A stretch of 64,000 nucleotides of DNA from positions 15,478 to 79,477 of IMG/VR virus record IMGVR_UViG_3300042922_001062; one strand, written 5' to 3'. Within the stretch, counting starts at the first letter, position 1, and every line of letters starts with the position of its first letter. Of the stretch, positions 14,877 through 31,738 are shown piece after piece. The position numbers and the translations under genes were made by a program. Origin of the DNA: a virus. A model generated the notes under the pieces. The model did no database searches. It worked only from the letters and a program-made list of their open reading frames with translations, and was not told the origin of the DNA.

Positions 14877-15976
14877 ATGAACCGGATGTATTCGGTCCTC
14901 ACCGTCAAGGCGGTGGAGGATGACCAGCGCATTATCCGCGGCACCGCCACCACGCCGTCGCCGGACCGCATGGGCGATATCGTCGAGCCGCTCGGCGTGA
15001 CCTTCCAGAACCCGCTGGTGCTGCTTCACCAGCACGACAGCGACCGGCCGGTCGGCACGGTCACCTTCGACAGGCCGACGGCGAAGGGCATCACCTTCGA
15101 GGCGAGGCTCCCGACGATCGAAGAGCCCGGGCCGCTGAAAGACCGCGTCGACACCGCCTGGGGCGAGATCAAGGCCGGCTTGGTCCGTGCCGTCTCCATC
15201 GGTTTCCGAGCGCTCGAATACTCGTGGATGGATGATGGCGGCATCCGCTTCATCTCCACCGAGGTGCTCGAGCTCTCTCTCGTCTCCGTTCCGGCCAACG
15301 CCGAGGCGGTGATCTCCACCATCAAGTCGATCGACGCCCCTGTGCTCGCCGCGACCGGCAAGGGGCCGAAGGCGTCCGATCGGCCTGCACCTCCCGGCGT
15401 CTCGGGGAAATCCGTCAAACCAGTGAACCTGAGGCCGAAGGAGGCCAGGACCATGAAGACCATCGCTGAGCAGATTGCTGCTCTCGAAGCGTCGCGGCAG
15501 ACCAAGGCCGCGCGCATGGCTGAAGTCATGCAGAAGAGCATCGACGAGGGCCGCTCGACCGACGCCGCGGAGCAGGAGGAGTTCGACACCCTTGAGCAGG
15601 AAGTGTCCGCGCTCGACGGCGACCTCAAGCGCCTCCGCGCGCTGGAGAAGGCGCAGGCCGCCACCGGGAAGCCGGTGATCGCCAATCAGATCCGGACGGC
15701 CGAGCAGGGCACCACCGCGCGTTCGGGTGTCACCCTGAAGTCCGCGGCGCCGGATAAGGGCATCCGCTTCGCGCGGTACGCCAAGTGCCTCGCCATCTCC
15801 ACCAAGACCCATCAGTCCGTGGTGTCGGTGGCCGAGGCCATGTACGGCGGCAAGGATGACGACTTCATCGACATCGTGAAGGCCGCTGTCTCGGCGATGA
15901 CCACCGGCAACACCGATGCGCTCATCGGCAACGAGGGCGGTTTCGCCGACTTCGTGGAATTCCTCCGCCCGATGAC
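14877..15976 (+). CDS. Prohead protease-major capsid fusion, 5' part (interrupted by the satellite; reads on to a stop at 16004)
   Basis: HK97-type protease motifs DRMGDIV, LLHQHD, AVSIGF, ELSLVSVPAN, then coiled-coil delta domain and capsid start. Confidence 0.92.
15959..15976 (+). repeat. attL core (18-bp direct repeat)
   Basis: ATTCCTCCGCCCGATGAC, identical to 31721-31738. Confidence 0.95.
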
Positions 15977-16024
15977 GAGTGTCAACCAAGCGGTCGCGAT
16001 TTAGCGAACACTTTCAATATGTTG

Positions 16025-16152: not shown

Positions 16153-16425
16153 GTGAACGCGACAAAAAAAGCCGAAGGTGAAATCCTCTACGGGGTAAAG
16201 GCCATCGCGAAGTTTCTCGGGGTGACGCGCCGGCAAGCGCAACACCTCGTCGACTCCAAGGCGGTGCCAAGCTTCAAGATGGGGCGGACGGTGTGCGCCC
16301 GGCCCGAGCGGGTGCGAAGCGTGATTGAAGCAGCGGAGAACGGCAGGGCCGCGCCAAGCGATCAGGTGGACCAACCGCAGGACGGCGGGCAGCTTAACCT
16401 TCTCGGCGGCGGCGAACATGGCTAG
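16153..16425 (+). CDS. AlpA/excisionase-like HTH protein
   Basis: [19 protein letters not shown]...[13 protein letters not shown]; paralogue of 29218-29613. Confidence 0.75.
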
Positions 16426-17482
16426 CGCCAGTATGCTCCCGATCGTCACGGTGTCGAATGGCATCGTGATTGCCTCCAGCCGCGACGTGGCGGCCTATTT
16501 CGACGCAGACCATCGCGTGGTGCTGCTGGCGATCGATACGCTCATGGTTGAGGCCCCCGACGTAGCCGAGGCACACTTCCGCGAGCACCACGGCGAGGCC
16601 AGGCACTACGACATGACGCGCGGTGGCCTAGCGCTGCTGGCGCGCTCGCTGAGCGGTCCGCAGGTCGGGCGGTGGCGTGAGCGCTATCTCGAAGCCTTCG
16701 ACCGCCAGCAGCGCGCGCTGGGGCAGGGCAGCGCGCTCTCGGTGCGTCAGCATCAGCCGAGTCCGTCGCCGGCGTTGGTGCCTGCCCTGCCGGACAACCT
16801 TGCCGATGGTGAGCCTCTCACGATGTCGAGCCGGGAGATCGCCGACCTCACCGGCAAGGAGCACGACAACGTCCGCCGGGACATCAAGAACCTCGCGGAT
16901 GGGCTTTCCCTCAGCTTTGAGGAAAAGTCCGAACCGTCGGCAGGCGGGCGCCCCTCGAAGGTGTTTCTCCTTCCGAAGCGTGAGTGCCTGATCCTCGTCT
17001 CGGGGTACAGCATCGAGCTGCGTGCCCGTATCATCGATCGCTGGATGGAACTTGAGGTGCGGCAGGCGGACCCGGTGGCGATGTTCAACCCGTCCGATCC
17101 GCGCATCGTGTCGGCCGTGCTGTCCCATTGGCATCAGGAGGCCACGACGGCACACGCAGCGCTTGCCAAGGCCGAGGGCACGCTGGCGCGGATCGAGACC
17201 ACTGCCGGCTCTCTCTGCATCACGGACGCTGCGAAGGCGCTCTCGCACCCGCCCAAGGCGCTGTTCGCCAAGCTCTACCGCAACCATTGGACCTATCGGC
17301 GCGGTGGCAAGGGCGATTGGCTGGGCCATGCCGACAAGTGCCGTGCCGGCCTGCTGGATCACCAGCCTACGACTTATCAGCGTGACGGCGAGACGGTGAT
17401 CGGCACGCAGGTCGTCGTGACACCCAAGGGATTGCGGAAGCTGGCCGAGCTGCTCGCTCACGATCCGGATTGGAGGGACTGA
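16418..17482 (+). CDS. Antirepressor-like protein: two Rha-type domains plus a KilA-C (ANT) domain
   Basis: [31 protein letters not shown]...[29 protein letters not shown]...VTPKGL. Confidence 0.85.
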
Positions 17483-18005: not shown

Positions 18006-18377
18006 ATGTCTAATCTGGCTTCCGAGATGAGCTTCGCGGCGCGCGTCGATGAGCGCGAGCGGATGATGCTGCAGGCGATCAGCCATGCGGGATGGTGGAT
18101 GTCGCCCGACGGCCGGATCGGCGAACGGGATGCCGCGGCGCTCCTGGGGTACGGACACCCGGATTCATTCCGGAACGCGAGACGTCGCGCGGATCCTGGT
18201 GGGTGGCCACGTGTATTTCGCCTCGGCGGGAACGGAAACAAGCTGACCTATCAGGTCCGAGATCTGGCGGAGTTCGTCGAGCGCAAAGCAAATCCGCCGG
18301 CCGAAACCTACGATATTTTCCGCAAAGTCAATCGCGCGGGATCGGCGCTCTCCGACGCCCGTCGTAAGCTTGCTTGA
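18006..18377 (+). CDS. Putative DNA-binding protein (MerR/AlpA-like HTH)
   Basis: IGERDAAALLGY...SFRNAR...GGWPRVFR...LTYQVRDLAEFVE. Confidence 0.6.
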   Translation: MSNLASEMSFAARVDERERMMLQAISHAGWWMSPDGRIGERDAAALLGYGHPDSFRNARRRADPGGWPRVFRLGGNGNKLTYQVRDLAEFVERKANPPAETYDIFRKVNRAGSALSDARRKLA

Positions 18378-19426
18378 CCTTGATAAGGAGCGAGCTGATG
18401 CGCATCAATTCCGCCGGACACCTGCCCGCGATCATGGGCTTTCTCGCCCGGGCGCACCTTGCCGGTGTTTCGCCCTTGGAGATCGCGGCGAAGGATGGTG
18501 CTCCGCCCGACCTTCAGCTCCTCGTCAGGGCTGCGACCGGTGCCGTCATGCTCGGCGACGTCGCTGCTGCTGGCGCGCTGCGCGCGGCGGTCGAAACCTT
18601 CATCGGGACGCTGCGCGGGCGCTCCATATTCTACACGCTCCTCGCTGATGGCGCGTTCGTCCGCGCGCCGATCCGCACACGGCTCACAGCAGTCGAGAAC
18701 GGCGTGGTCGCCTACGTCGTGAGCGAGGGGCGTGCGAAGCCGGTTTCGAGGATCGGGCTCGACGCCGCGGGACTGGAACGCGCCAAGGCCACTTCGCTCA
18801 TCGTGCTGACGCGCGAGGCTGTGTACGCATCCTCGCCGGCGCTGCTCGACTTCCTGACCTCTGAGCTGCAGGGCGCGGTCTCGGCGGCCGTCGACGCGGC
18901 CTTCATCGCAAGGATCATCGACGACGGCTCGCCGAGCCTCACGCCGACCTTCAGCGCGTCGGGAGCGGGCATCGACGACATCAGGTTTGACCTCCGGCGA
19001 CTGCTCGACGCCGTGAACGTCACGGGCAGCGGCCATCTGGCATGGCTGATGTCGGCAGACGTCGCGAACCGCCTCGCCGTGCTCGTGGAGCACTTTCCCG
19101 GTATGGCGCCGAACGGTGGGACATTGCTCGAGCAGCCGGCCTTCGTTTCCGAGGCCATCGACCCGGGCTCGCTGCACTGCCTCAACGCCGCGTCGATCGC
19201 GGCGGACAGCGAGGCCATCATCGTGCGGTCCAGCGACGTCGCCAGCGTCGTTATGGATACCGCCCCAGCGCAGGACAGCTCCACGCCGGCGGCGACGCAG
19301 AACGTGTCGATGTTTCAAACCAACTCGACCGCCGTGCTCGCGGAGGCGTTTTTCGGAGCGCAACGGGTGCGGCCGAACGCGCTGGCGACGCTGACGGACA
19401 TCGCCTGGGGCGACGTGGCCTCATGA
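18374..19426 (+). CDS. Satellite HK97-fold major capsid protein paralogue (no protease domain)
   Basis: Aligns with the helper capsid: FIGTLRGRSI/FVEFLRPMTI, VSEGRAKPV/VGEGKGKPL, QD...VSMFQTNS.A..AE. Confidence 0.85.
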   Translation: MTLIRSELMRINSAGHLPAIMGFLARAHLAGVSPLEIAAKDGAPPDLQLLVRAATGAVMLGDVAAAGALRAAVETFIGTLRGRSIFYTLLADGAFVRAPIRTRLTAVENGVVAYVVSEGRAKPVSRIGLDAAGLERAKATSLIVLTREAVYASSPALLDFLTSELQGAVSAAVDAAFIARIIDDGSPSLTPTFSASGAGIDDIRFDLRRLLDAVNVTGSGHLAWLMSADVANRLAVLVEHFPGMAPNGGTLLEQPAFVSEAIDPGSLHCLNAASIAADSEAIIVRSSDVASVVMDTAPAQDSSTPAATQNVSMFQTNSTAVLAEAFFGAQRVRPNALATLTDIAWGDVAS

Positions 19427-24170: not shown

Positions 24171-26600
24171 TCAGGCAGCCGCAGGCTTTTGCCGAGCCAC
24201 GTACATTGCCATAGGCACGCACGGCAAATGGTGATTCGAGCTCGACATGAGGAGCAATCGGTTCACGTTGTTGTCCTGGAACCCGCCGATCCGTATCACC
24301 GATTGCAGCCATCCGATGGAATGCGGCACTCTGGCCTTCTTGATAAGGCGTTGGATGGCTGTCCTACTTCGGGAATGTCGCGCCGCCAATTGCGCTTCGA
24401 AGTTTGGCTTCACTTCTTCCGCCTTCAGAGACTTTAGGTAGTTGAACGTGCGACGGATCACCGATCGGAACTCGACGAATTCAGGTGCTTCTCTCAAGCT
24501 AAGGATATCGTCGCACTGGGTCGGAAACTCCAGTGGGGCTGACCGGATGTCTGCCGCAAGCGAATGTAGCGTCGATGAAGTTCCCAAATAGCGGCGGTTC
24601 AAAGCTGCGTTCAGCTCCAGCCAACGATGCTTGCTGTCAGTGAGGATCTGCGCCCCCGTGGCTTGCGCCAAATACATGGCGATTTCGAAGTTGGGTGCCA
24701 ACTTCATGAGCTGGATCTGTCCACCTGTTTCGGGAGCCAAGCTCTCCGGTTGGAGCACGGCAAGCGGGTCGGCCTCTCGGAGCTGGCCGATTTGCGGCAT
24801 CAGTTCGTCGAGATCGACTGTTTCGCCCTGCGGCATTGCTCGAGCGATCTGATTGCGTAGCCCCTCTTCGGACAAAGCGAGGAGTGTGCGCTTGAAGTCG
24901 TCGCGCATCAGTTCCTCCATCCGAGGGTCGTTTGAAATCTCGAACTCAAGGCCGGATGCCCGCGCCCTGGCCATCGCCATCATTTGATCGCGCAGGTGGA
25001 TGTCGAAGTCACAAGGATCGGGGATCAGGTTGACCAGACCCGCCTCGACCAACGGCATCATGCTCACGAAGAAATGGATCGTCTTCAACAGTTCGCCCCG
25101 GTACTGACCCGGGTGCTCGGTCGGACGGAATTTCTTATTCAGGGTGCCGGGGTGGACGAAAGGGTGCTGAATCAGCATTTCACCGAAATACAGCGGCGAA
25201 CCAATCGCGAATTCGTTGATGTGCTGGGGATGGAGGGAGCCGGTATAGACCGATCGAAGCTGCCCGTCCGGCTTTGGGAGTAAGTCGAGCAGGTCGGTTT
25301 CCAGTGGCCATAGGCCTTCGTAAAGGCTATAGGCACTTGCAATCTTTTCGTCGGTCATCTCGCGCCGAACTTGGGTCCAGTCCTTTCTGTCCAGTTCAAG
25401 GAGGTTCGACAAGCCGCGGAGAAGCATAAGGTTTCGCTCGCGGATGCTCCTAGCCGTCCAGCTCGGCCTTAGCTCGGATGGCTTCGGCTCGCAGCATCTG
25501 GCGAAGAGGTCGCCGGACCCACAACCACAAGAGTCCTTCGGTTTCAGCGGTGACACCGGCAGATCCTTTTGAAGGAACGCGCGCGGCTTTTCTGACCGGC
25601 CAAACTCATCCTGATAGTGAACATGTCCGCTGTCGAATTTGGCAAACATTTCACCGCCAAAAAGGTGGAGTTCGGTCTCTGGTGGTCGTAGTGTCTCCCG
25701 CAACTCCTTCCAAGATTTCTTCACCGTTTTCTCTGGATAAAGCCATGCCTCGCGTCCAGCAGCGATGTATCTTTCGGAGCGAGCCTTGAGGATGAAGTTG
25801 ATCTCCGAGACTTGTTGATCATCGAGTTCGCGAGACCGGATGAAATCGATCGTCGATACCATCGTCGGATGAAAGTTCCGAGCGAAGGTCCGGTTCTCAA
25901 GCGGATTCACGTCCGGGTTCTTTGCATACTCAAGATTTGTCAGGATCAGGCAGTGGTCTGGTCCCAGAGGGAAGATGGTCTGCGAACCTTTCCATGCAAT
26001 TGCCGGATCGTCGGTTTGGTCGCAACCAAGGTCTGCGGGAGGAGCAGCATAGTTATAAATCGTTACCGGATGGTCGGTAATGATGAACTTGACAGAGGCA
26101 TTTCCCGCCGAGACAATCTCCCGGACGCCAGTGGTCCAAATGGTACAATTGAGAAAACGAATACCCTGCATCTCAAGCATAAGCTCATTCTGGGAAAGCT
26201 CAGGGTACTGTCGCTTTAGCCACTCTAGGCCCTTTGGAGTGCGAAGCTTTTGGATGTCGATATACTCGAAAAAGGTCTTGAAGTGGGAGTGCCATGCGGC
26301 CTTGTCCAAGCCAGAGAGGGCGCGGACCGCGTCCGCGCCGCGGGTGTCAATGTCGCCGAATAGTTGTCGCTCGATTTCATCGTTTACCGCCGTTCCAAAG
26401 AATGTTGAATAAAGATCCCTTTGAACGAACGCACGGGATGTTGGAGAGTCAAACAATGACCGCCCTGTGTTTTTTCCTCCATCCCTCCGTGTGAAAATCG
26501 GCGGTGACAAGTCGAGATAGAATAAGGTTCTGCCTCCGTCGGTGAGGAAGCGTTCTTGATACCATTGGGGAACGTAGTGATTATTTCTTCTTACTGACAT
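24171..26600 (-). CDS. DUF4238-domain protein with a SEC-C-like motif (candidate anti-phage)
   Basis: N-terminal HYVPQWY, FIITDHPV, IFPLGP; central CGCGSG..FARCC; AT-richer codon usage. Confidence 0.75.
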   Translation of the reverse strand: MSVRRNNHYVPQWYQERFLTDGGRTLFYLDLSPPIFTRRDGGKNTGRSLFDSPTSRAFVQRDLYSTFFGTAVNDEIERQLFGDIDTRGADAVRALSGLDKAAWHSHFKTFFEYIDIQKLRTPKGLEWLKRQYPELSQNELMLEMQGIRFLNCTIWTTGVREIVSAGNASVKFIITDHPVTIYNYAAPPADLGCDQTDDPAIAWKGSQTIFPLGPDHCLILTNLEYAKNPDVNPLENRTFARNFHPTMVSTIDFIRSRELDDQQVSEINFILKARSERYIAAGREAWLYPEKTVKKSWKELRETLRPPETELHLFGGEMFAKFDSGHVHYQDEFGRSEKPRAFLQKDLPVSPLKPKDSCGCGSGDLFARCCEPKPSELRPSWTARSIRERNLMLLRGLSNLLELDRKDWTQVRREMTDEKIASAYSLYEGLWPLETDLLDLLPKPDGQLRSVYTGSLHPQHINEFAIGSPLYFGEMLIQHPFVHPGTLNKKFRPTEHPGQYRGELLKTIHFFVSMMPLVEAGLVNLIPDPCDFDIHLRDQMMAMARARASGLEFEISNDPRMEELMRDDFKRTLLALSEEGLRNQIARAMPQGETVDLDELMPQIGQLREADPLAVLQPESLAPETGGQIQLMKLAPNFEIAMYLAQATGAQILTDSKHRWLELNAALNRRYLGTSSTLHSLAADIRSAPLEFPTQCDDILSLREAPEFVEFRSVIRRTFNYLKSLKAEEVKPNFEAQLAARHSRSRTAIQRLIKKARVPHSIGWLQSVIRIGGFQDNNVNRLLLMSSSNHHLPCVPMAMYVARQKPAAA

Positions 26601-26657
26601 TGCCCTTTAGCATCGCTCCCGCCGCTAGTTGCTGCAATTCTTACCGGCTTGGGCGAA

Positions 26658-27920
26658 TTAAGGATGGCCTCGCAGCGCGATCATCTTGTTCGCGACACGG
26701 GCGGCCAAGTCGGAATGAAACTCCTCAAGGCTCTCCGCGGCTTCGATGAGGGCTTCGTCGGCACCGTCATCGTCCATCGCTTCGACCAGCTGCTCGACCT
26801 GTTGCGCAAGCTCTTCGAGCGCCTGATAGAGCCGGGTGCATTGGTCCAGAGTGAGCGACGGGTCGGCGAGGGCAGCGGGGACATCCTTGGCGAGATGCTT
26901 CGCCCTCTCGCCGCGCTCGCGCAGCAAAGTCATCCAGTCCGTCGCCATGTCGACGCGCTCCAGCAAAGCCGTCAGCTCCGCCCGTTTCAGGGTCGCCTCG
27001 ATAGTGGTCTCCTTCAACGCAGGTCCGCCGGGGCGGTGGGGGGACGTGACGGCCGCCCGAACGGCCAGTGCGCTCGATGGTGGCGCAGCGCCGATCGTGG
27101 CCATGAAATCCCCTTCGGGCACGATGCGCACGATATGGCCGGCGGCGAGCATGGCTTCGGCCTTGAGGTGCTTCGCGCTCTTGGGCGTGCCGAAATGCAC
27201 GTCTCGATCGCCGAGCACGAGCATGGTGGTGTGGCGGGTGACGCCCGGATGAACGTCGGCGCCAGCGGCCGCGGCAAGATCGGCCGCGGCGCTCTTGCCG
27301 AGCTCCAGCTTGCCGGTGAACACCACGACCTGGCCCGACAACGGCCCGTCGCCGACAGCCTCTCGGCGGATCGGAGCCGCCTTCTCGCCGGAGACCGGCA
27401 GTTCAACGCGGCGGAACCAGCCGTCCAGGTCCAGGCCGGTTTCTTCCATGGCGCGGTGCAGGATCACGCCGGCGGCGCGCGCGTCCTCAAGAGCGTCGTG
27501 GTGACGGAAGGCGATGCCGAACTCGGCGGCAATGATCGGCAGGCTGTAGCTCGCCCTGTCGGGCCATGCCCGCCGGGCGACGCGGATTGTGTCGAGCCAG
27601 CGGTTGCCGACGGATGCCAAGCCATGGCGATCGCAGGCCCGCATCAGCGACGTCCGGTCGAAGGGTCCATGGCTGATAACGGGCCGGTCACCGAGAGCAT
27701 TGAGAAGCCAGTCGTGCCGGTGGCGGAAGGGCAGGCACCCCGCGACGGCTTCCTCGTCGATGCCATGAATGCCGACGTTAAAGGCGTCGAAATAGTCCTC
27801 CGGGTCGATGAGGTGACATTCGGCGTGGATCTCTCTGCCGCCATCGAACACGACGACGCCAAGCTGGCAGATGCTGCTGTAGTTCGCGTTCGCGGTTTCT
27901 ACATCGATCGCGACGAACAT
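26658..27920 (-). CDS. DEDDh 3'-5' exonuclease plus BRCT domain and helical C-terminal extension
   Basis: IDVETAN, HHDALEDA; BRCT pattern LSGQVVVFTGKL...GVTRHTTMLVLG. Confidence 0.85.
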   Translation of the reverse strand: MFVAIDVETANANYSSICQLGVVVFDGGREIHAECHLIDPEDYFDAFNVGIHGIDEEAVAGCLPFRHRHDWLLNALGDRPVISHGPFDRTSLMRACDRHGLASVGNRWLDTIRVARRAWPDRASYSLPIIAAEFGIAFRHHDALEDARAAGVILHRAMEETGLDLDGWFRRVELPVSGEKAAPIRREAVGDGPLSGQVVVFTGKLELGKSAAADLAAAAGADVHPGVTRHTTMLVLGDRDVHFGTPKSAKHLKAEAMLAAGHIVRIVPEGDFMATIGAAPPSSALAVRAAVTSPHRPGGPALKETTIEATLKRAELTALLERVDMATDWMTLLRERGERAKHLAKDVPAALADPSLTLDQCTRLYQALEELAQQVEQLVEAMDDDGADEALIEAAESLEEFHSDLAARVANKMIALRGHP

Positions 27921-27991
27921 GGCTCCCTCCCATACCTTCCGGAAGGTTGCACATCGGCTCCGTTCACGGCAAGCGCGCCTGTTCTGCGACG

Positions 27992-28840
27992 CTACTCGGT
28001 GAGCAGCCCCGCCAAACGCCCCTTTGCGATAAGATAGCTAACAAAGGAAGCGCACGCTCCCAGCATGAACAACGCGTCAGCCTCGTCGACGTTCGCGGCG
28101 TCTTGGTCGAGCAGCGAGTGCCGTATGCCTTTCTCGTCGCTGGCATAGCCATAAAGGGCCGAGAATCCTTTCTTCATTGCCTCGTGGATGGCGCCAGCCT
28201 TTTCCAGTTTGACCAGAGCGGGGCCAAGTGTAGTCGATCCCGGCGCTAGCTGTACTGCGACCGCTTCAACAGCATGGATAGCTTCGCGCACGCAGTCCGG
28301 ATACTTTCCTGCAGTGGCAGCTTCTATCGAGGACCTCAAATGGGCATAGGCGCCGGTGATGCCGACAGCGCGTGCGGACTTGAGTGCTGCTTCGAGAGCT
28401 GCAGCCTCCGTCGGATCGGTTATGGGGGCAATAGTATCCCCGTCGACCACGCGATAAGCTGCGTGACAATTAACTAAAACGTCGGCAATATGCTTGCGGA
28501 ATGCGGCTGGCGTATAATTGAATCTTAGTATCCATTCAATAAATCCAAAAACTTCTACGTAGTCGCCGTTCTCTATAATTGTCTGAATTCGTCGTATTTG
28601 TTGAAAGTGCAAAGAAATGTATTCACTAGAGAATCTATTTTGATGAAATACAAACTCCGCCTTGAGAATTGCATTCCATGGCTCGGCAACGGTGTGGTCG
28701 CCGCGCCTTGGAAGAACATGCATGTCGAACACGAAGAACAATTGAGCCCTCAGTTGAGGGGAAAGTTTTTTCAAGGCGAGTTGCGTTGGTAACGGTGCGC
28801 GACCTTCGGCTTGCTCAAAGGAGACTAATTTCCTGTCCAT
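27992..28840 (-). CDS. AbiJ-NTD4-like / HEPN-like abortive-infection candidate
   Basis: SFEQAEG..PLP.QL..LRAQL N-terminus; C-terminal EAIHAVEA, LYGYASDEKGIRHS. Confidence 0.7.
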   Translation of the reverse strand: MDRKLVSFEQAEGRAPLPTQLALKKLSPQLRAQLFFVFDMHVLPRRGDHTVAEPWNAILKAEFVFHQNRFSSEYISLHFQQIRRIQTIIENGDYVEVFGFIEWILRFNYTPAAFRKHIADVLVNCHAAYRVVDGDTIAPITDPTEAAALEAALKSARAVGITGAYAHLRSSIEAATAGKYPDCVREAIHAVEAVAVQLAPGSTTLGPALVKLEKAGAIHEAMKKGFSALYGYASDEKGIRHSLLDQDAANVDEADALFMLGACASFVSYLIAKGRLAGLLTE

Positions 28841-28911
28841 GATCCGCCCCACTTCCAATGCGTGGCAACCTGCCATTGGAGTACCGGCAGCGCAATGAGC
28901 GCCTTCGCGAT

Positions 28912-29064
28912 CCCCTCTTGGCGGAGGGGGCGAAGCAGCGCATAAATGGGATTGGGCTTGAACACCCGGACGAAAGTTATAGCGCGACGCCCTTGGCGGG
29001 GCTTGGCGCCGAAGCACAGCGCCCTTGGCGGGGCGGTGTGCAAGGTCGCACCTTGGCGGGTGCG
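28912..29064 (+). repeat. Four hairpins with an identical TTGGCG loop
   Basis: CCCCTC/GAGGGG (28912-29), GCCC/GGGC (28989-29002), CGCCC/GGGCG (29020-35), CGCACC/GGTGCG (29047-64). Confidence 0.8.
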
Positions 29065-29080
29065 CCGGACCTGGCCATCA

Positions 29081-29167
29081 TGGCCGGGAGCGGTGCGCTA
29101 TGTCCAGAGGGTACGCCCTTAAAAGCGCGTCGGCCTGTAACTTTCGCAGGTGTTCAACTCCCGGCTG
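29081..29167 (+). ncRNA. C4/CI-type antisense RNA with upstream a1b1 and downstream a2b2 targets
   Basis: Closing stem GCCGGGAG/CTCCCGGC; TAACTTTCG and GGTGTTCAA are complementary to CGAAAGTTA/TTGAACACC (28958-79) and TTGAACA/CGAAAGT (29191-210). Confidence 0.75.
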
Positions 29168-29217
29168 CCGGTCTGCTACCGGCGACGGCCTTGAACAGCC
29201 GAACGAAAGTACATCCC

Positions 29218-29613
29218 ATGAACATGAACGCCAGCCGGCCGAGACCGGCCAGCATCCCACCGACCGAGGTCGCGCGGAAGCTTCTCGACATCCGTCACGA
29301 CCTCCAGCGCGAGCTTCAGCGCGTGGACACCCTGCTTGCAATGCTCGGCGCCCCGGTGGCGGCGGCAGGGTGTCAGCCGGACACTCCGGCGGGACGTGGC
29401 CCCAATTTCGGGGAGACGTCGGCGAGTGATCTCCTCTATGGAGCGCCAGCCATTGCGGGCTATCTTGGCCTTACCGAGAAGCAGGCCCGGCACCGTATCG
29501 AGGCGGGGAATATTCCGGCCTTCAAGATCGGCGGCACGGTGTGCGCCCGCCAATCCTCCCTGTCCACATGGCTCGCGAACCTCGAAGCCGCAGCCGCGCA
29601 TGCGGAGGACTGA
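29218..29613 (+). CDS. Excisionase/AlpA-like HTH protein with an N-terminal coiled coil
   Basis: LLYGAPAIAGYLGLTEKQARHRIEAGNIPAFKIGGTVCAR. Confidence 0.75.
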   Translation: MNMNASRPRPASIPPTEVARKLLDIRHDLQRELQRVDTLLAMLGAPVAAAGCQPDTPAGRGPNFGETSASDLLYGAPAIAGYLGLTEKQARHRIEAGNIPAFKIGGTVCARQSSLSTWLANLEAAAAHAED

Positions 29614-29615
29614 TC

Positions 29616-29867
29616 ATGCTGGTGGATCATGATTTCGGCGGACTGCTTCCGCCGGCAAGCGTCGATCGCATCGCCACGCGCCGCGCGCTCGCGTCGATCA
29701 TCGAGCGGGCGCTCGCGCTGCGGGATGCCCTCGATGATGACGCCGATCTTGAGGAGTGCGGCGACGCCGAGCCCAGCCTCGGTGCATCGGAGGCAGGCGC
29801 GCACTTCTGGTCTCAGATCGGATGGGCGAGGGGAGGCGACGGCGACCTTGAATGGGGGGGGTCATGA
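29616..29867 (+). CDS. Small acidic hypothetical protein
   Basis: GGAGG RBS; D.DLEE..D.EPSLG and DGDLE motifs. Confidence 0.55.
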   Translation: MLVDHDFGGLLPPASVDRIATRRALASIIERALALRDALDDDADLEECGDAEPSLGASEAGAHFWSQIGWARGGDGDLEWGGS

Positions 29868-30283
29868 CCGTGCGCTCTATGCTCTCGGTGGTCGGGGGAA
29901 CTGACCTCGCGGAGGGTATGCCCAAATTTGGGGGTACCCCCTTCCGCTCCTCCAAGGTGTTCATCAACCCCGACTGGTCGGCCATCTGCCACGCACTGGA
30001 AGGTATCGACCCTGAGCACCTCCAGACGGCGCCCATAGCGTCGCTGGTGGCCGGTATGGAGGCGCGCCTGCGGTTCTGCTGCCAGACGCTCTCCCTGCCG
30101 TCCTACGCGTGGCAGGAGGGCCATACGGCCATAGCGAAGTGCCTCGACGATGCGTCGGCGCTCTCCGACTTCGCGGCGCAGTGGGGAATCTCCACAGACT
30201 GGATACTACTAGGGGACGCCCGCTCCTATGTTCGGGTGCGCACCTTCGGCGCCGCCGGTAGCATCCGCTGGGCCGCTGACTGA
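29864..30283 (+). CDS. Hypothetical protein with an XRE-like C-terminal motif
   Basis: FAAQWGISTDWILLG; ATGA coupling. Confidence 0.5.
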   Translation: MTVRSMLSVVGGTDLAEGMPKFGGTPFRSSKVFINPDWSAICHALEGIDPEHLQTAPIASLVAGMEARLRFCCQTLSLPSYAWQEGHTAIAKCLDDASALSDFAAQWGISTDWILLGDARSYVRVRTFGAAGSIRWAAD

Positions 30284-30414
30284 CTATCCGCCCGGCGCCG
30301 CCTCGCGCTGGCGCCGGGCATTTCGATACGACATGAGAATTTCATCAAGGCATTGAGCATGCTGGGCTTTCCCGGGCTTCCTAAAGCTGCATGCGACAAC
30401 CGAGGCAAATCACC

Positions 30415-31713
30415 ATGGCGAGTGTTCGCAAGCGCAAGTGGATCCACAACGGCAAAGAGGGTGAAGCGTGGGTCGTCAACTATACCGACCAGGGGGGCAA
30501 GCGCCGGCAGAAGGCTTTCGACCGGAAGAAGGAAGCCGACGCTTATCGGACGGAGATCGAAGCGGAGATCAAGCAGGGAGTGCATACTGCTCTCAACGAG
30601 AGCGTGAAGGTCTCTGAGGCCGTGCGGGCGTTCTGCGTCGACTGCCAGAAGCGCGTGACGGCAGGAACGATGACGAATGGAGGATTCAAGAGCTACCGAT
30701 GGAAGCTCGAAAAGTACGCAGTGCAGAAGTTCGGCACCCGCAAGGTTTCCACGATCACGGCTGAGGAGGTGCAAGATTGGGTGGACGAGTTGCTGCGGAC
30801 GCTGTCGCCGACCTCTGTCACGGGCATCTACGTGGCCTTCGGCGTACTGCTATCGTTCGCGGTCCGGCGCCGTTGGGTGCGTAGGAACATCCTGCGGGAC
30901 ATGCCGTGCAAGCTACCGGCAAGGCCAAAGCGCAAGGCGGTGCCGACCAAGGCAGATATTTTGGCCCTGATGCACGCCGCATCTACGATGGAGCGCGGCG
31001 AGAACCTCCTGACGTTCGTCAATCGGCTGGTCGTTGTGGCCTGCGGCGTGTTCGGCGGCTTCCGCCCTGGAGAAACGTTCGGCCTTCAATGGGAGGACGT
31101 CGACTGGCAGAAGGGCGTCATCCACGTCCGCCACAGCCACACTAAAATGGACGGGCTGAAGGCGCCCAAGACCGAGGCGGGATATCGCGATGTTCCAATA
31201 ACCGCCCCCATTGATCGGGCCTTGCGGCAGTGCGCGCGCTACTGGACGATCCGCCGGCTTGCTGAAGGGCCGGGTTTCGGCAGCGATCACCCGAAGGCGA
31301 TCTTCTCGCGGATCGCGCGCATGTGGGAGGGCGAGTTTATCGCGGTGCGGCCGGAGGACCTGAAGGGGTTCGTAATCCTGACCAAGGTGGGCAAGCCGAT
31401 GACGGCGACGGCGAGCGCAACGACGTTCTGGTCCCGGCTGATGAAGGCGGCGGGCCTGCAAACGGAGGACGGGAAGAACCGCTTCACGCCGCACGCGCTG
31501 CGCCACGCCGCGGCGAGCCTGCTTATTGAGGCGGGTCTCGACGACATGAACCTGAAGCGCTTCATCGGGCACGCCTCGATCCAGACGACGAAGGATATCT
31601 ACGGGCACCTTTTCCCGACAGACGAACGGATGGTTGCAACAACGGCAGCGATTGCGCGCGATCTGGACGCAACAACAGAGCGACAAACATCTGTAAGGCA
31701 CCCGCTGCAATAG
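30415..31713 (+). CDS. int: Tyrosine recombinase (integrase)
   Basis: GFRPGE (R), PKTEAG (K), HALRH, IGHAS, IYGH (Y); N-terminal arm-binding-like domain; stop codon 7 bp before attR. Confidence 0.95.
   Translation: MASVRKRKWIHNGKEGEAWVVNYTDQGGKRRQKAFDRKKEADAYRTEIEAEIKQGVHTALNESVKVSEAVRAFCVDCQKRVTAGTMTNGGFKSYRWKLEKYAVQKFGTRKVSTITAEEVQDWVDELLRTLSPTSVTGIYVAFGVLLSFAVRRRWVRRNILRDMPCKLPARPKRKAVPTKADILALMHAASTMERGENLLTFVNRLVVVACGVFGGFRPGETFGLQWEDVDWQKGVIHVRHSHTKMDGLKAPKTEAGYRDVPITAPIDRALRQCARYWTIRRLAEGPGFGSDHPKAIFSRIARMWEGEFIAVRPEDLKGFVILTKVGKPMTATASATTFWSRLMKAAGLQTEDGKNRFTPHALRHAAASLLIEAGLDDMNLKRFIGHASIQTTKDIYGHLFPTDERMVATTAAIARDLDATTERQTSVRHPLQ
31669..31686 (+). repeat. Putative integrase arm-type sites (right arm, inside the int 3' end)
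   Basis: GCAACAA-CAGA-GCGACAA, 11-bp period; a further GCAACAA at 31636. Confidence 0.6.
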
Positions 31714-31720
31714 GAAAAAT

Positions 31721-31738
31721 ATTCCTCCGCCCGATGAC
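31721..31738 (+). repeat. attR core (18-bp direct repeat)
   Basis: ATTCCTCCGCCCGATGAC. Confidence 0.95.

What the first reader, a model, noticed from the sequence alone, without database searches (positions are those of the whole stretch)
28958..29217. C4/CI-type antisense RNA switch in front of the excisionase-like/integrase operon
Seen: a1 TTGAACACC (28958) and b1 CGAAAGTTA (28971); a structured region closed by GCCGGGAG/CTCCCGGC (29083-29165) holding the exact complements TAACTTTCG (29138) and GGTGTTCAA (29149); then a2 TTGAACA (29191) and b2 CGAAAGT (29204) directly before ATG 29218. Known: this a1b1 / b'a' / a2b2 layout is that of the P1/P7 C4 and P4 CI RNAs, which block translation and transcription of the downstream gene. 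Inference: RNA-based control, rather than a CI-type protein repressor (none is obvious), keeps the satellite from excising.
Basis: partly seen in the sequence, partly recalled or inferred. Interest (0 to 1): 0.7.

Follow-up and report, generated by a model that had tools for sequence, protein, structure and literature searches.

The report
C4-type antisense RNA switch, integrase operon
The leader of this mobile element's integrase operon encodes a small folded RNA that base-pairs with two matching sites on its own transcript, one covering the ribosome-binding site; this is the RNA lock known from phages P1 and P4, here in an uncatalogued family with many different "keys".

Summary
The a-N-b box pair occurs three times in the 79-kb record, all in this leader, against 0.01 expected by chance.

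The 83-nt element at 29083-29165 folds as a closing stem plus two hairpins. b' lies in the loop of the second hairpin and a' is single-stranded.

I found 31 distinct related leaders in IMG/VR proviruses and alphaproteobacterial genomes, and aligned 18 of them. The scaffold is conserved, while a' and b' take 15 different combinations. a1/b1 and a2/b2 change with them: 92% and 88% of cells pair, 14 and 13 of 18 pairs show two-sided changes, and 0 of 500 shuffles match this. b2 always ends 5-10 nt before the ATG, so it is the Shine-Dalgarno site. A tyrosine integrase lies downstream in at least 14 relatives.

P1's own immI region, read directly, has the same topology. However, Rfam C4 does not match, sRNA-Xcc1 scores 22 bits against a cut-off of 53, and no family member reaches any Rfam cut-off. 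Three UUGGCG-loop hairpins at fixed positions are specific to this family.

No RNA data exist, so the small RNA, its action in trans and its control of excision are all inferred. This scan has already found C4-type switches on other DNA, including sRNA-Xcc1-type ones.

Verdict: a well-supported new variant of a known kind.

The parts
28912..28929 (+). Hairpin 1: CCCCTC / loop TTGGCG / GAGGGG, upstream of a1
   Evidence: Present with a different stem in L131, L127, L159 and L180. It lies in a 45-nt block identical to L131. The loop could double as a -35-like hexamer, but no promoter was confirmed.
28954..28967 (+). a1 hairpin: GGG / loop holding a1 (TTGAACACC, 28958-28966) / CCC
   Evidence: a1 pairs with a' in 96% of cells, and 6 of 9 pairs show two-sided changes.
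28971..28979 (+). b1 box CGAAAGTTA
   Evidence: b1 pairs with b' in 87% of cells, and 8 of 9 pairs show two-sided changes.
28989..29064 (+). Array of three hairpins with an invariant TTGGCG loop (loops at 28993, 29025 and 29053) and different stems
   Evidence: D1, D4. The loops start at about -90, -58 and -29 from the RNA 5' end in most of the four-box leaders; a few have only two. They are absent from sRNA-Xcc1 loci and from P1.
29082..29169 (+). C4-like RNA core: closing stem 29083-90/29158-65, hairpin I 29091-29132 (UACG tetraloop), hairpin II 29133-29151 with b' 29138-29146 in its loop, single-stranded a' 29149-29157, and tail UGCC
   Evidence: Fold. Consensus structure and compensatory changes (95% paired, 12 pairs with two-sided changes, 0 of 500 shuffles). 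Model R2 scores it 105.9 bits. sRNA-Xcc1 scores 22.3 bits.
29167..29183 (+). Trailing hairpin GCCGGT/ACCGGC with no U-run
   Evidence: It is helix 5, where 3 of 5 pairs show two-sided changes.
29187..29200 (+). a2 hairpin: GGC / loop holding a2 (TTGAACA, 29191-29197) / GCC
   Evidence: a' pairs with a2 in 86% of cells, and 6 of 9 pairs show two-sided changes. The stem co-varies (GGC/GCC versus GGG/CCC in L131).
29204..29210 (+). b2 box CGAAAGT, overlapping the purine-rich Shine-Dalgarno-like GAAAG 7 nt before the ATG
   Evidence: b' pairs with b2 in 89% of cells, and 7 of 9 pairs show two-sided changes. An ATG follows b2 by 5-10 nt in all 20 four-box leaders.
29218..29613 (+). First regulated gene, 131 aa, with a C-terminal HTH_17 / excisionase-like domain
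   Evidence: Pfam HTH_17, E 0.0019, below the cut-off. PHROG 18541 at 1e-9 and PHROG 66 'excisionase and transcriptional regulator' at 4.5e-4.
29629..30283 (+). Two small ORFs (29629-29904 and 29852-30283) between the HTH gene and int, function unknown
   Evidence: no family.
30391..31713 (+). Tyrosine integrase, the last gene of the operon, ending 7 bp before the right copy of the 18-bp att repeat
   Evidence: Pfam Phage_integrase 8.6e-22. PHROG 1 at 4.9e-58. Repeat ATTCCTCCGCCCGATGAC at 15959 and 31721.

Best explanation
The leader of the HTH-orf-orf-integrase operon encodes, on the mRNA strand, a structured RNA of about 85 nt of the P1 C4 / P4 CI design. A closing stem holds two hairpins. 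The loop of the second hairpin (b') and the single strand after it (a') are the antisense 'key'.

The same transcript carries two 'locks'. a1/b1 lies about 125 nt upstream. a2/b2 lies just downstream, with a2 shown in a small hairpin loop and b2 lying on the Shine-Dalgarno site of the first gene.

Most likely course of events (inferred). The RNA is cut out of the leader. A U precedes the closing stem and R-C-C follows it, as in RNase P substrates, and P1 C4 is such a substrate. The RNA accumulates and pairs with a2/b2 of new transcripts. This blocks translation initiation of the first gene and, through polarity, lowers integrase and the excisionase-like protein. The result would be a burst of expression on entry into a cell, followed by self-silencing while the element is resident.

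a1/b1 competes for the same key. In the uncut leader the key is predicted to pair with a1/b1 (ribosome site open) or with a2/b2 (ribosome site closed), so RNA supplied in trans that occupies a1/b1 would tip the transcript's own key onto the ribosome site.

The hypervariable key and lock letters make each element answer only to its own RNA.

Shown: the boxes, the fold, three-way covariation, b2 on the ribosome site, linkage to integrase. Inferred: processing, action in trans, the effect on translation, transcription and excision, and the role of the UUGGCG hairpins.
For: - Boxes are exact and far beyond chance.
- The fold is supported by compensatory changes, including tetraloop swaps UACG/GAGA/GAAA.
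- In a sequence-only MAFFT alignment of 18 leaders, a1b1:b'a' pairs in 91.6% of cells with 14 of 18 pairs changed on both sides. b'a':a2b2 pairs in 87.6% with 13 of 18. No shuffle out of 500 matches either, and slid controls give 32-53%.
- There are 15 a'/b' combinations among 18 leaders. The boxes are the most variable part of the RNA (0.73-1.0 bit per column, against 0.11 for the closing stem).
- Cognate duplexes are stronger than non-cognate ones (b' against the downstream flank: -14.6 versus -8.9 kcal/mol).
- An ATG follows b2 by 5-10 nt in all 20 four-box leaders.
- An integrase lies downstream in win, L156, L158, L159, L161, L165, L173, L178, L179, L180, L183, L189, L141 and L134.
- P1 immI, read directly, has the same order, with b2 plus AGG 8 nt before the ATG.
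- The nearest Rfam model is sRNA-Xcc1. Its founding member is an 88-nt RNA seen on Northern blots (PMC2996969). Its bona fide members show the same box layout.
- P4 CI pairs with seqA upstream and seqC downstream (PMC4825925).
- 'Precursor of C4 antisense RNA ... is a substrate for RNase P' is the title of a paper cited in PMC11143913.
Against: - No RNA evidence of any kind exists for this locus or its relatives.
- No + strand promoter and no intrinsic terminator were recognised, so the transcript ends are unknown.
- Rfam C4, c4-2 and c4-a1b1 do not match, and my model scores P1 C4 at only 9.7 bits. Homology to C4 is therefore not shown, only the same design.
- In predicted minimum-energy folds of the uncut leader the key is always paired in cis (11 leaders with a1b1, 6 with a2b2, 1 mixed). 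A purely cis switch would explain the covariation equally well.
- The tail is UGCC rather than RCCA and lies inside the trailing hairpin.
- The excisionase assignment is weak.
Confidence: 0.7

Rival explanations
1. A purely cis-acting bistable leader. No stable small RNA is released. The key b'a' in each transcript pairs either with a1b1 (ribosome site free, operon ON) or with a2b2 (ribosome site hidden, OFF). A factor sets the choice, perhaps one that binds the UUGGCG hairpins, or the kinetics of transcription do.
For: Predicted minimum-energy folds of 18 uncut leaders always pair the key in cis: 11 with a1b1, 6 with a2b2 and 1 mixed. Three-way covariation is expected under this model too. 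The trailing hairpin has no U-run. A conserved hairpin array lies inside the a1b1:b'a' enclosure.
Against: The boxes are the most variable part of an otherwise conserved scaffold, with 15 combinations among 18 leaders. That looks like selection for private specificities, which matters only if the RNA meets other transcripts. The compact fold, closed by an acceptor-like stem, is conserved and co-varies although it would be disrupted in either cis state. The nearest relatives in design, P1 C4 and sRNA-Xcc1, are discrete small RNAs (PMC2996969).
Confidence: 0.2
2. The repeats are DNA operator sites, direct and inverted half-sites for a DNA-binding regulator such as the HTH protein, rather than RNA pairing partners.
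For: The first gene encodes an HTH protein. The a-b unit occurs in three copies around the regulatory region.
Against: The three copies change together to many unrelated sequences while the neighbouring HTH domain stays conserved. G-U wobble pairs are tolerated (for example columns 30/207: AU 9, GU 6), which makes sense only for RNA of this strand. The inverted copy sits in a co-varying RNA fold, with b' in a loop. b2 coincides with the ribosome site.
Confidence: 0.04
3. The region is coding: an N-terminal extension of the first gene. The frame 28858-29613 is open in the window, and a database protein, P0003, is annotated with such an extension.
For: There is an open frame of 251 codons in the window. 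P0003 carries a 45-residue extension that is the translation of the RNA region.
Against: In L131, L127, L152 and L141 the frame is closed by stops inside the RNA element 75-129 nt upstream of the ATG, and in L134 at 249 nt. Substitutions follow base-pairing, not codon structure. Every leader has an ATG 5-10 nt after the SD-like b2.
Confidence: 0.01

Closest known systems
Phage P1/P7 immI: a1 b1 - c4 antisense RNA - a2 b2 - icd - ant (Rfam C4 RF01695, c4-a1b1 RF03163, clan CL00128)
   Same: The order is the same, as read in AF234172: a1 TTGACAG, b1 GTTAGTG, then the RNA with b' CACTAAC in a hairpin and a' CTGTCAA just before the closing stem, then a2 and b2, with b2+AGG 8 nt before the ATG. The RNA lies on the mRNA strand inside the leader. 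UUAUG precedes the closing stem in both. The a box sits in a short hairpin loop, as in the c4-a1b1 model.
   Different: There is no significant sequence or covariance-model similarity. C4 gives no hit at E<=10, and R2 scores P1 C4 at 9.7 bits. The regulated genes are an HTH/excisionase-like protein and an integrase, not icd/antirepressor. Three UUGGCG hairpins lie between a1b1 and the RNA, and P1 has none. The hosts are Alphaproteobacteria.
sRNA-Xcc1 (Rfam RF02221; 88-nt sRNA of Xanthomonas campestris, PMC2996969)
   Same: It is the best Rfam match, with the same fold of closing stem, two hairpins and a single strand. An intermediate, L154, scores 52.9 bits against a cut-off of 53 and has a2/b2 on the ribosome site. 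Members above the cut-off carry a1b1/a2b2 boxes.
   Different: The window RNA scores only 22.3 bits, and none of 15 family members reaches the cut-off. sRNA-Xcc1 members end in RCCA and lack the UUGGCG array. The papers read here treat sRNA-Xcc1 as a trans-acting, virulence-linked sRNA rather than a C4-type switch (PMC2996969, PMC12189769), and Rfam places it in no clan.
Satellite phage P4 immunity: seqA - CI RNA (seqB) - seqC
   Same: A small RNA is processed from an untranslated leader and pairs with complementary sequences upstream and downstream of itself (PMC4825925). It is carried by an integrative element that depends on another phage.
   Different: P4 CI acts by premature transcription termination on the replication operon. 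Here the downstream target is a ribosome site in front of an int operon, and termination is untested. No sequence similarity was tested or seen.
STAXI motif (Weinberg et al. 2010, PMC2864571)
   Same: [quoted passage not shown]
   Different: STAXI units are pseudoknots that often carry UUCG loops. Here the units are simple hairpins with a UUGGCG hexaloop. No Rfam match appeared at E<=10 in the region.

Membership tests
Rfam C4 antisense RNA (RF01695) | Covariance-model score at or above the gathering score (45 bits) | tested here: not met
   No C4 match in the window at gathering, nor at E<=10 in 28700-29400. None in L131/L127 or in 15 further members. The same model finds P1 c4 at 68.8 bits.
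Rfam C4 antisense RNA (RF01695) | Fold: closing stem with two hairpins, b' in the loop of the second and a' single-stranded before the 3' strand of the closing stem | tested here: met
   (95% paired, 12 compensated pairs).
P1/P7 immI-type switch (design) | Complementary a/b boxes both upstream (a1b1) and downstream (a2b2) of the RNA on the same strand | tested here: met
   Covariation. P1 read for comparison.
P1/P7 immI-type switch (design) | b2 overlaps the ribosome-binding site of the first downstream gene | tested here: met
   GAAAG inside b2, 7 nt gap to ATG 29218. ATG 5-10 nt after b2 in 20 of 20 four-box leaders.
P1/P7 immI-type switch (design) | Downstream genes icd and ant (antirepressor) | tested here: not met
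   The downstream genes are an HTH_17-like protein, two unknown ORFs and a tyrosine integrase.
P1/P7 immI-type switch (design) | A small RNA of about 77-90 nt is released from the leader (RNase P) and represses in trans | not testable with these tools
   No RNA run holds the locus. The only hints are U at -1, an acceptor-like stem and an R-C-C tail.
Rfam c4-a1b1 (RF03163) | Covariance-model score at or above 46.7 bits | tested here: not met
   No hit in the window. L131 a2 region scores 16.8 bits.
Rfam sRNA-Xcc1 (RF02221) | Covariance-model score at or above 53 bits | tested here: not met
   Window 22.3 bits, L155 29.4 and L154 52.9. 15 members of the window-type family have no hit at gathering.
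P4 CI RNA system | Antisense pairing causes premature transcription termination | not testable with these tools
   No terminator-like site on the + strand between a1 and the gene. Rho-dependent events cannot be predicted here.

The most novel reading that the evidence does not exclude
The leader may be a three-part lock rather than a plain antisense repressor. a1b1 would be a built-in decoy that keeps a naive transcript's own key off the ribosome site. RNA already present from the resident element would occupy the decoy and so flip each new transcript into self-repression. The three invariant UUGGCG (YUNR-type) loops at fixed positions would be the input port for an unknown protein or RNA that reopens the switch on induction. 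With at least 15 natural, mutually orthogonal key/lock pairs, the family would be an address system that lets co-resident integrative elements control integrase independently. In this record it would also time the excision of an element that interrupts its host phage's protease-capsid gene.
Probability: 0.2. Interest if true: 0.75.

Novelty: new variant of a known kind. Interest (0 to 1): 0.5.

Why it matters
- It adds an uncatalogued, well-supported RNA family (34 IMG/VR contigs plus bacterial genomes) to the C4/CI class.
- It shows that this class also heads integrase operons of alphaproteobacterial prophages and integrative elements, not only antirepressor or replication operons.
- The family supplies a natural set of at least 15 compensated key/lock variants on one scaffold. 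This is direct material for testing how RNA immunity specificities evolve, and for building orthogonal riboregulators.
- It supports reading the 'orphan' sRNA-Xcc1 family as C4-type cis-encoded switches.
- The fixed array of UUGGCG hairpins is a new module with no explanation yet.
- In this record the switch governs the recombination genes of an element inserted in a phage capsid gene, so it may decide when the host phage regains that gene.

Tried and rejected
- Rfam at gathering on the window gave nothing. At E<=10 it gave only sRNA-Xcc1 at 22 bits and a chance P24 hit.
- The single-protein related-loci search in viral and genome contigs found no relatives. The alignment query worked afterwards.
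- An exact b'a' pattern scan of viral contigs gave 119+ hits, all chance; none had target boxes.
- blastn of the leader against the phage collection gave no match.
- Sequencing runs: no RNA holder was listed, and read laying was not used.
- The sigma-70/terminator scan found no + strand promoter or terminator in the leader. The TTGGCG-N18-ATAAAT idea for hairpin 1 is not conserved in L127.
- The coding-extension reading is rejected.
- I looked for the capsid gene or the att repeat next to relatives' integrases and found none in the loci held.
- A crude longest-run matrix was too noisy and was replaced by duplex energies and pair counts.
- P1 70-94.8 kb does not hold c4; it was located by a family search.
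- Papers PMC3256417 and PMC41593 are not held.
- A second weak R1 hit at window 29887-30000 (E 0.56) was not found again with R2 and is taken as chance.

Full report
**What is there.** The window is bases 15478-79477 of a 79,477-bp IMG/VR virus record. The unit TTGAACA-N(2-14)-CGAAAG occurs exactly three times in the window, twice on + and once inverted, all in this leader. Shuffles give 0.01 on average. The whole record holds no other copy and no second RNA of this kind.

The core at 29082-29169 folds at -50.5 kcal/mol into a closing stem, a long hairpin I with a UACG tetraloop, and hairpin II with b' in its loop. a' is unpaired, and a trailing hairpin follows.

**Surroundings.** Upstream and divergent lies an AbiJ_NTD4 gene (27992-28840, minus strand). 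Downstream lie a 131-aa protein with a weak HTH_17/excisionase-like domain, two unknown ORFs, and a tyrosine integrase (30391-31713).

The integrase ends 7 bp before an 18-bp sequence, ATTCCTCCGCCCGATGAC, that is repeated at 15959. The repeat there lies inside a prohead-protease ORF, and a capsid-family ORF resumes at 31734. My Pfam scan of the larger ORFs between the repeats found no CI/XRE-type repressor. It did find a Rha/ANT protein and a second capsid-family gene.

**Relatives.**
- The HTH protein has few homologues. An alignment of them brought in 30 loci.
- The leader of L131 is 84% identical to the window's (identical columns of the two-row alignment), yet all three box sets are different and still mutually complementary (a GTGGAAAC, b CCTGAGAGA).
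- L127, from Sphingomonas ginsenosidimutans, has a third set (b CTAGAGAGA).
- A covariance model found further members: L136/L152, L141, L134, and L154 and L155 in alphaproteobacterial genomes. L136/L152, L141 and L134 carry all four boxes, L154 only a2/b2, and L155 only a1 and a partial b1.
- A 25-nt signature of the scaffold found 34 IMG/VR contigs.
- These give 31 distinct leaders. Twenty carry all four boxes at fixed distances: a1 at -119 to -132, b1 13 nt later, a2 at +24 to +30, and b2 at +37 to +45. An ATG follows b2 by 5-10 nt in each.
- Eleven others lack a complete four-box set. Most of them have a1, and usually b1, closer to the RNA and no nearby a2/b2.

**Tests of pairing.** In a MAFFT alignment of 18 four-box leaders that was not fitted to any structure, I counted the pairs of the hypothesised intermolecular-type helices.

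| Helices | Cells paired | Pairs changed on both sides | Shuffles reaching this | Slid controls |
|---|---|---|---|---|
| a1b1 with b'a' | 91.6% | 14 of 18 | 0 of 500 | 32-47% |
| b'a' with a2b2 | 87.6% | 13 of 18 | 0 of 500 | 32-53% |

- The scaffold itself is 95% paired, with 12 compensated pairs. That alignment was fitted to the model, so it carries less weight.
- G-U pairs are tolerated, which fits RNA of the + strand.
- Cognate key/lock duplexes are more stable than non-cognate ones.
- The boxes are the most variable columns of the RNA, while the closing stem is almost invariant. There are 15 a'/b' combinations among 18 leaders.
- The reading frame that is open through the element in the window is closed in the relatives. 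The coding reading, and the database ORF P0003 that follows it, can therefore be set aside.

**What it controls.** A tyrosine integrase lies 0.5-3.6 kb downstream, in the same orientation, in at least 14 leaders. The first gene is usually an unknown protein. Some N-termini resemble each other (RPMFPP-like), and in the window this part is fused to the HTH domain.

**Comparison with known systems.**
- **P1.** The Rfam C4 model locates P1's c4 at 68.8 bits. Reading that region shows a1 TTGACAG, b1 GTTAGTG, then the RNA with CACTAAC and CTGTCAA, then a2 and b2, with b2+AGG 8 nt before the ATG. This is the same topology as here.
- **Rfam C4-family models.** C4, c4-2 and c4-a1b1 do not match the window. 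L131 gives only 16.8 bits to c4-a1b1. My model gives P1 c4 9.7 bits.
- **sRNA-Xcc1.** This is the best Rfam match: 22.3 bits in the window, 29.4 in L155 and 52.9 in L154, against a cut-off of 53. None of 15 window-type members reaches any Rfam cut-off. sRNA-Xcc1 matches occur in 24 of 151 sampled alphaproteobacterial genomes. One of these, G045, is unpublished, and no other claim rests on it. Members above the cut-off show the same a1b1/a2b2 layout, and the tandem neighbours L194 and L218 differ only in b. An earlier report of this scan reached the same view of sRNA-Xcc1 on other DNA.
- **P4.** P4 CI pairs with seqA and seqC on either side of itself (PMC4825925).
- **P1 function.** P1 C4 is needed for full repression of ant (PMC8198154).

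**What is special here.** Hairpins with an invariant UUGGCG loop and freely varying stems lie between a1b1 and the RNA. In most four-box leaders there are three, with loops starting about 90, 58 and 29 nt before the RNA; a few have two. A fourth sometimes lies upstream of a1. The L141/L134 branch has UUGCCG instead. sRNA-Xcc1 loci and P1 have none. Their function is unknown. UUGG fits the YUNR loop motif of antisense recognition loops; this rests on my own knowledge and was not tested.

**Mechanism.** I commit to a C4-type mechanism at 0.7. The RNA is released from the leader and pairs with a2/b2, which blocks initiation at 29218 and is polar on int.
- Hints of RNase P-type processing are a U before the stem, an acceptor-like stem, and an R-C-C tail in 14 of 18 leaders.
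- Folding of uncut leaders predicts that the key is always occupied in cis, by a1b1 in 11 and by a2b2 in 6 of 18.
- a1b1 may therefore act as a decoy. Alternatively, the whole leader may work as a purely cis toggle (rival, 0.2).
- No RNA data, promoter or terminator could be obtained.

**Verdict.** This is a new variant of a known kind, of moderate interest.

Noticed in passing
window 28912-29064; L131, L127 and L156-L189 leaders: Hairpins with an invariant UUGGCG hexaloop and unrelated stems sit at fixed positions, with loops starting about -90, -58 and -29 from the RNA 5' end, and sometimes about -170. The L141/L134 branch has UUGCCG. A semi-conserved YGCCGA / CCGAA stretch after the first array hairpin could pair with the loop through wobble pairs. 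None of these hairpins occurs in sRNA-Xcc1 loci or in P1.
   Followed up: partly
L192-L221 (alphaproteobacterial genomes), e.g. L194/L218: Bona fide sRNA-Xcc1 (RF02221) members carry C4-type a1b1/a2b2 boxes, with b2 before an ATG and an RCCA tail. They are often tandem at about 1-kb spacing, and neighbours differ in the b box. Rfam lists the family without a clan.
   Followed up: partly
window 15959-15976 and 31721-31738: An exact 18-bp direct repeat, ATTCCTCCGCCCGATGAC, brackets about 15.76 kb. The left copy lies in an ORF with a prohead-protease domain (14877-16004), and a capsid-family ORF resumes at 31734. The element therefore appears to interrupt a protease-capsid gene.
   Followed up: partly
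window 16325-17482 and 18374-19426: The inserted element encodes a Rha + ANT(KilAC) antirepressor-type protein and its own HK97-type capsid-family protein.
   Followed up: no
L157, L163, L164, L169, L171, L175, L181, L185, L186, L188: Family members share the RNA 5' signature and an a1(b1) site at -78 to -102, but have no a2/b2 within 140 nt and mostly no UUGGCG array. This is a second leader architecture that I did not analyse.
   Followed up: no
window 28913-28957 versus L131 2187-2231: A 45-nt block upstream of a1 (hairpin 1 to the GGG of the a1 stem) is identical between the window and L131, while the boxes next to it are all different. This is a local mosaic that suggests box swapping by recombination or strong selection.
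   Followed up: no
P0003 (NCBI protein, 186 aa): This database protein starts inside the RNA element. Its first 45 residues are a translation of the near-identical RNA region, so it is probably a gene-calling artefact.
   Followed up: partly
L136:97, L162:10145, L178:7910 and window 29218: The first genes after the switch share an N-terminal motif (M-x-x-x-RPMFPP / SRPRPASIPP) but differ downstream. In the window this part is fused to the HTH domain. No family was assigned.
   Followed up: no
window 24171-28840, minus strand: Upstream of the leader lies a lower-GC block of three co-oriented genes: a DUF4238 809-aa protein, an RNase_T-family exonuclease with a weak BRCT hit, and an AbiJ_NTD4 protein. 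It looks like defence cargo. L131 has the same AbiJ-like neighbour.
   Followed up: no
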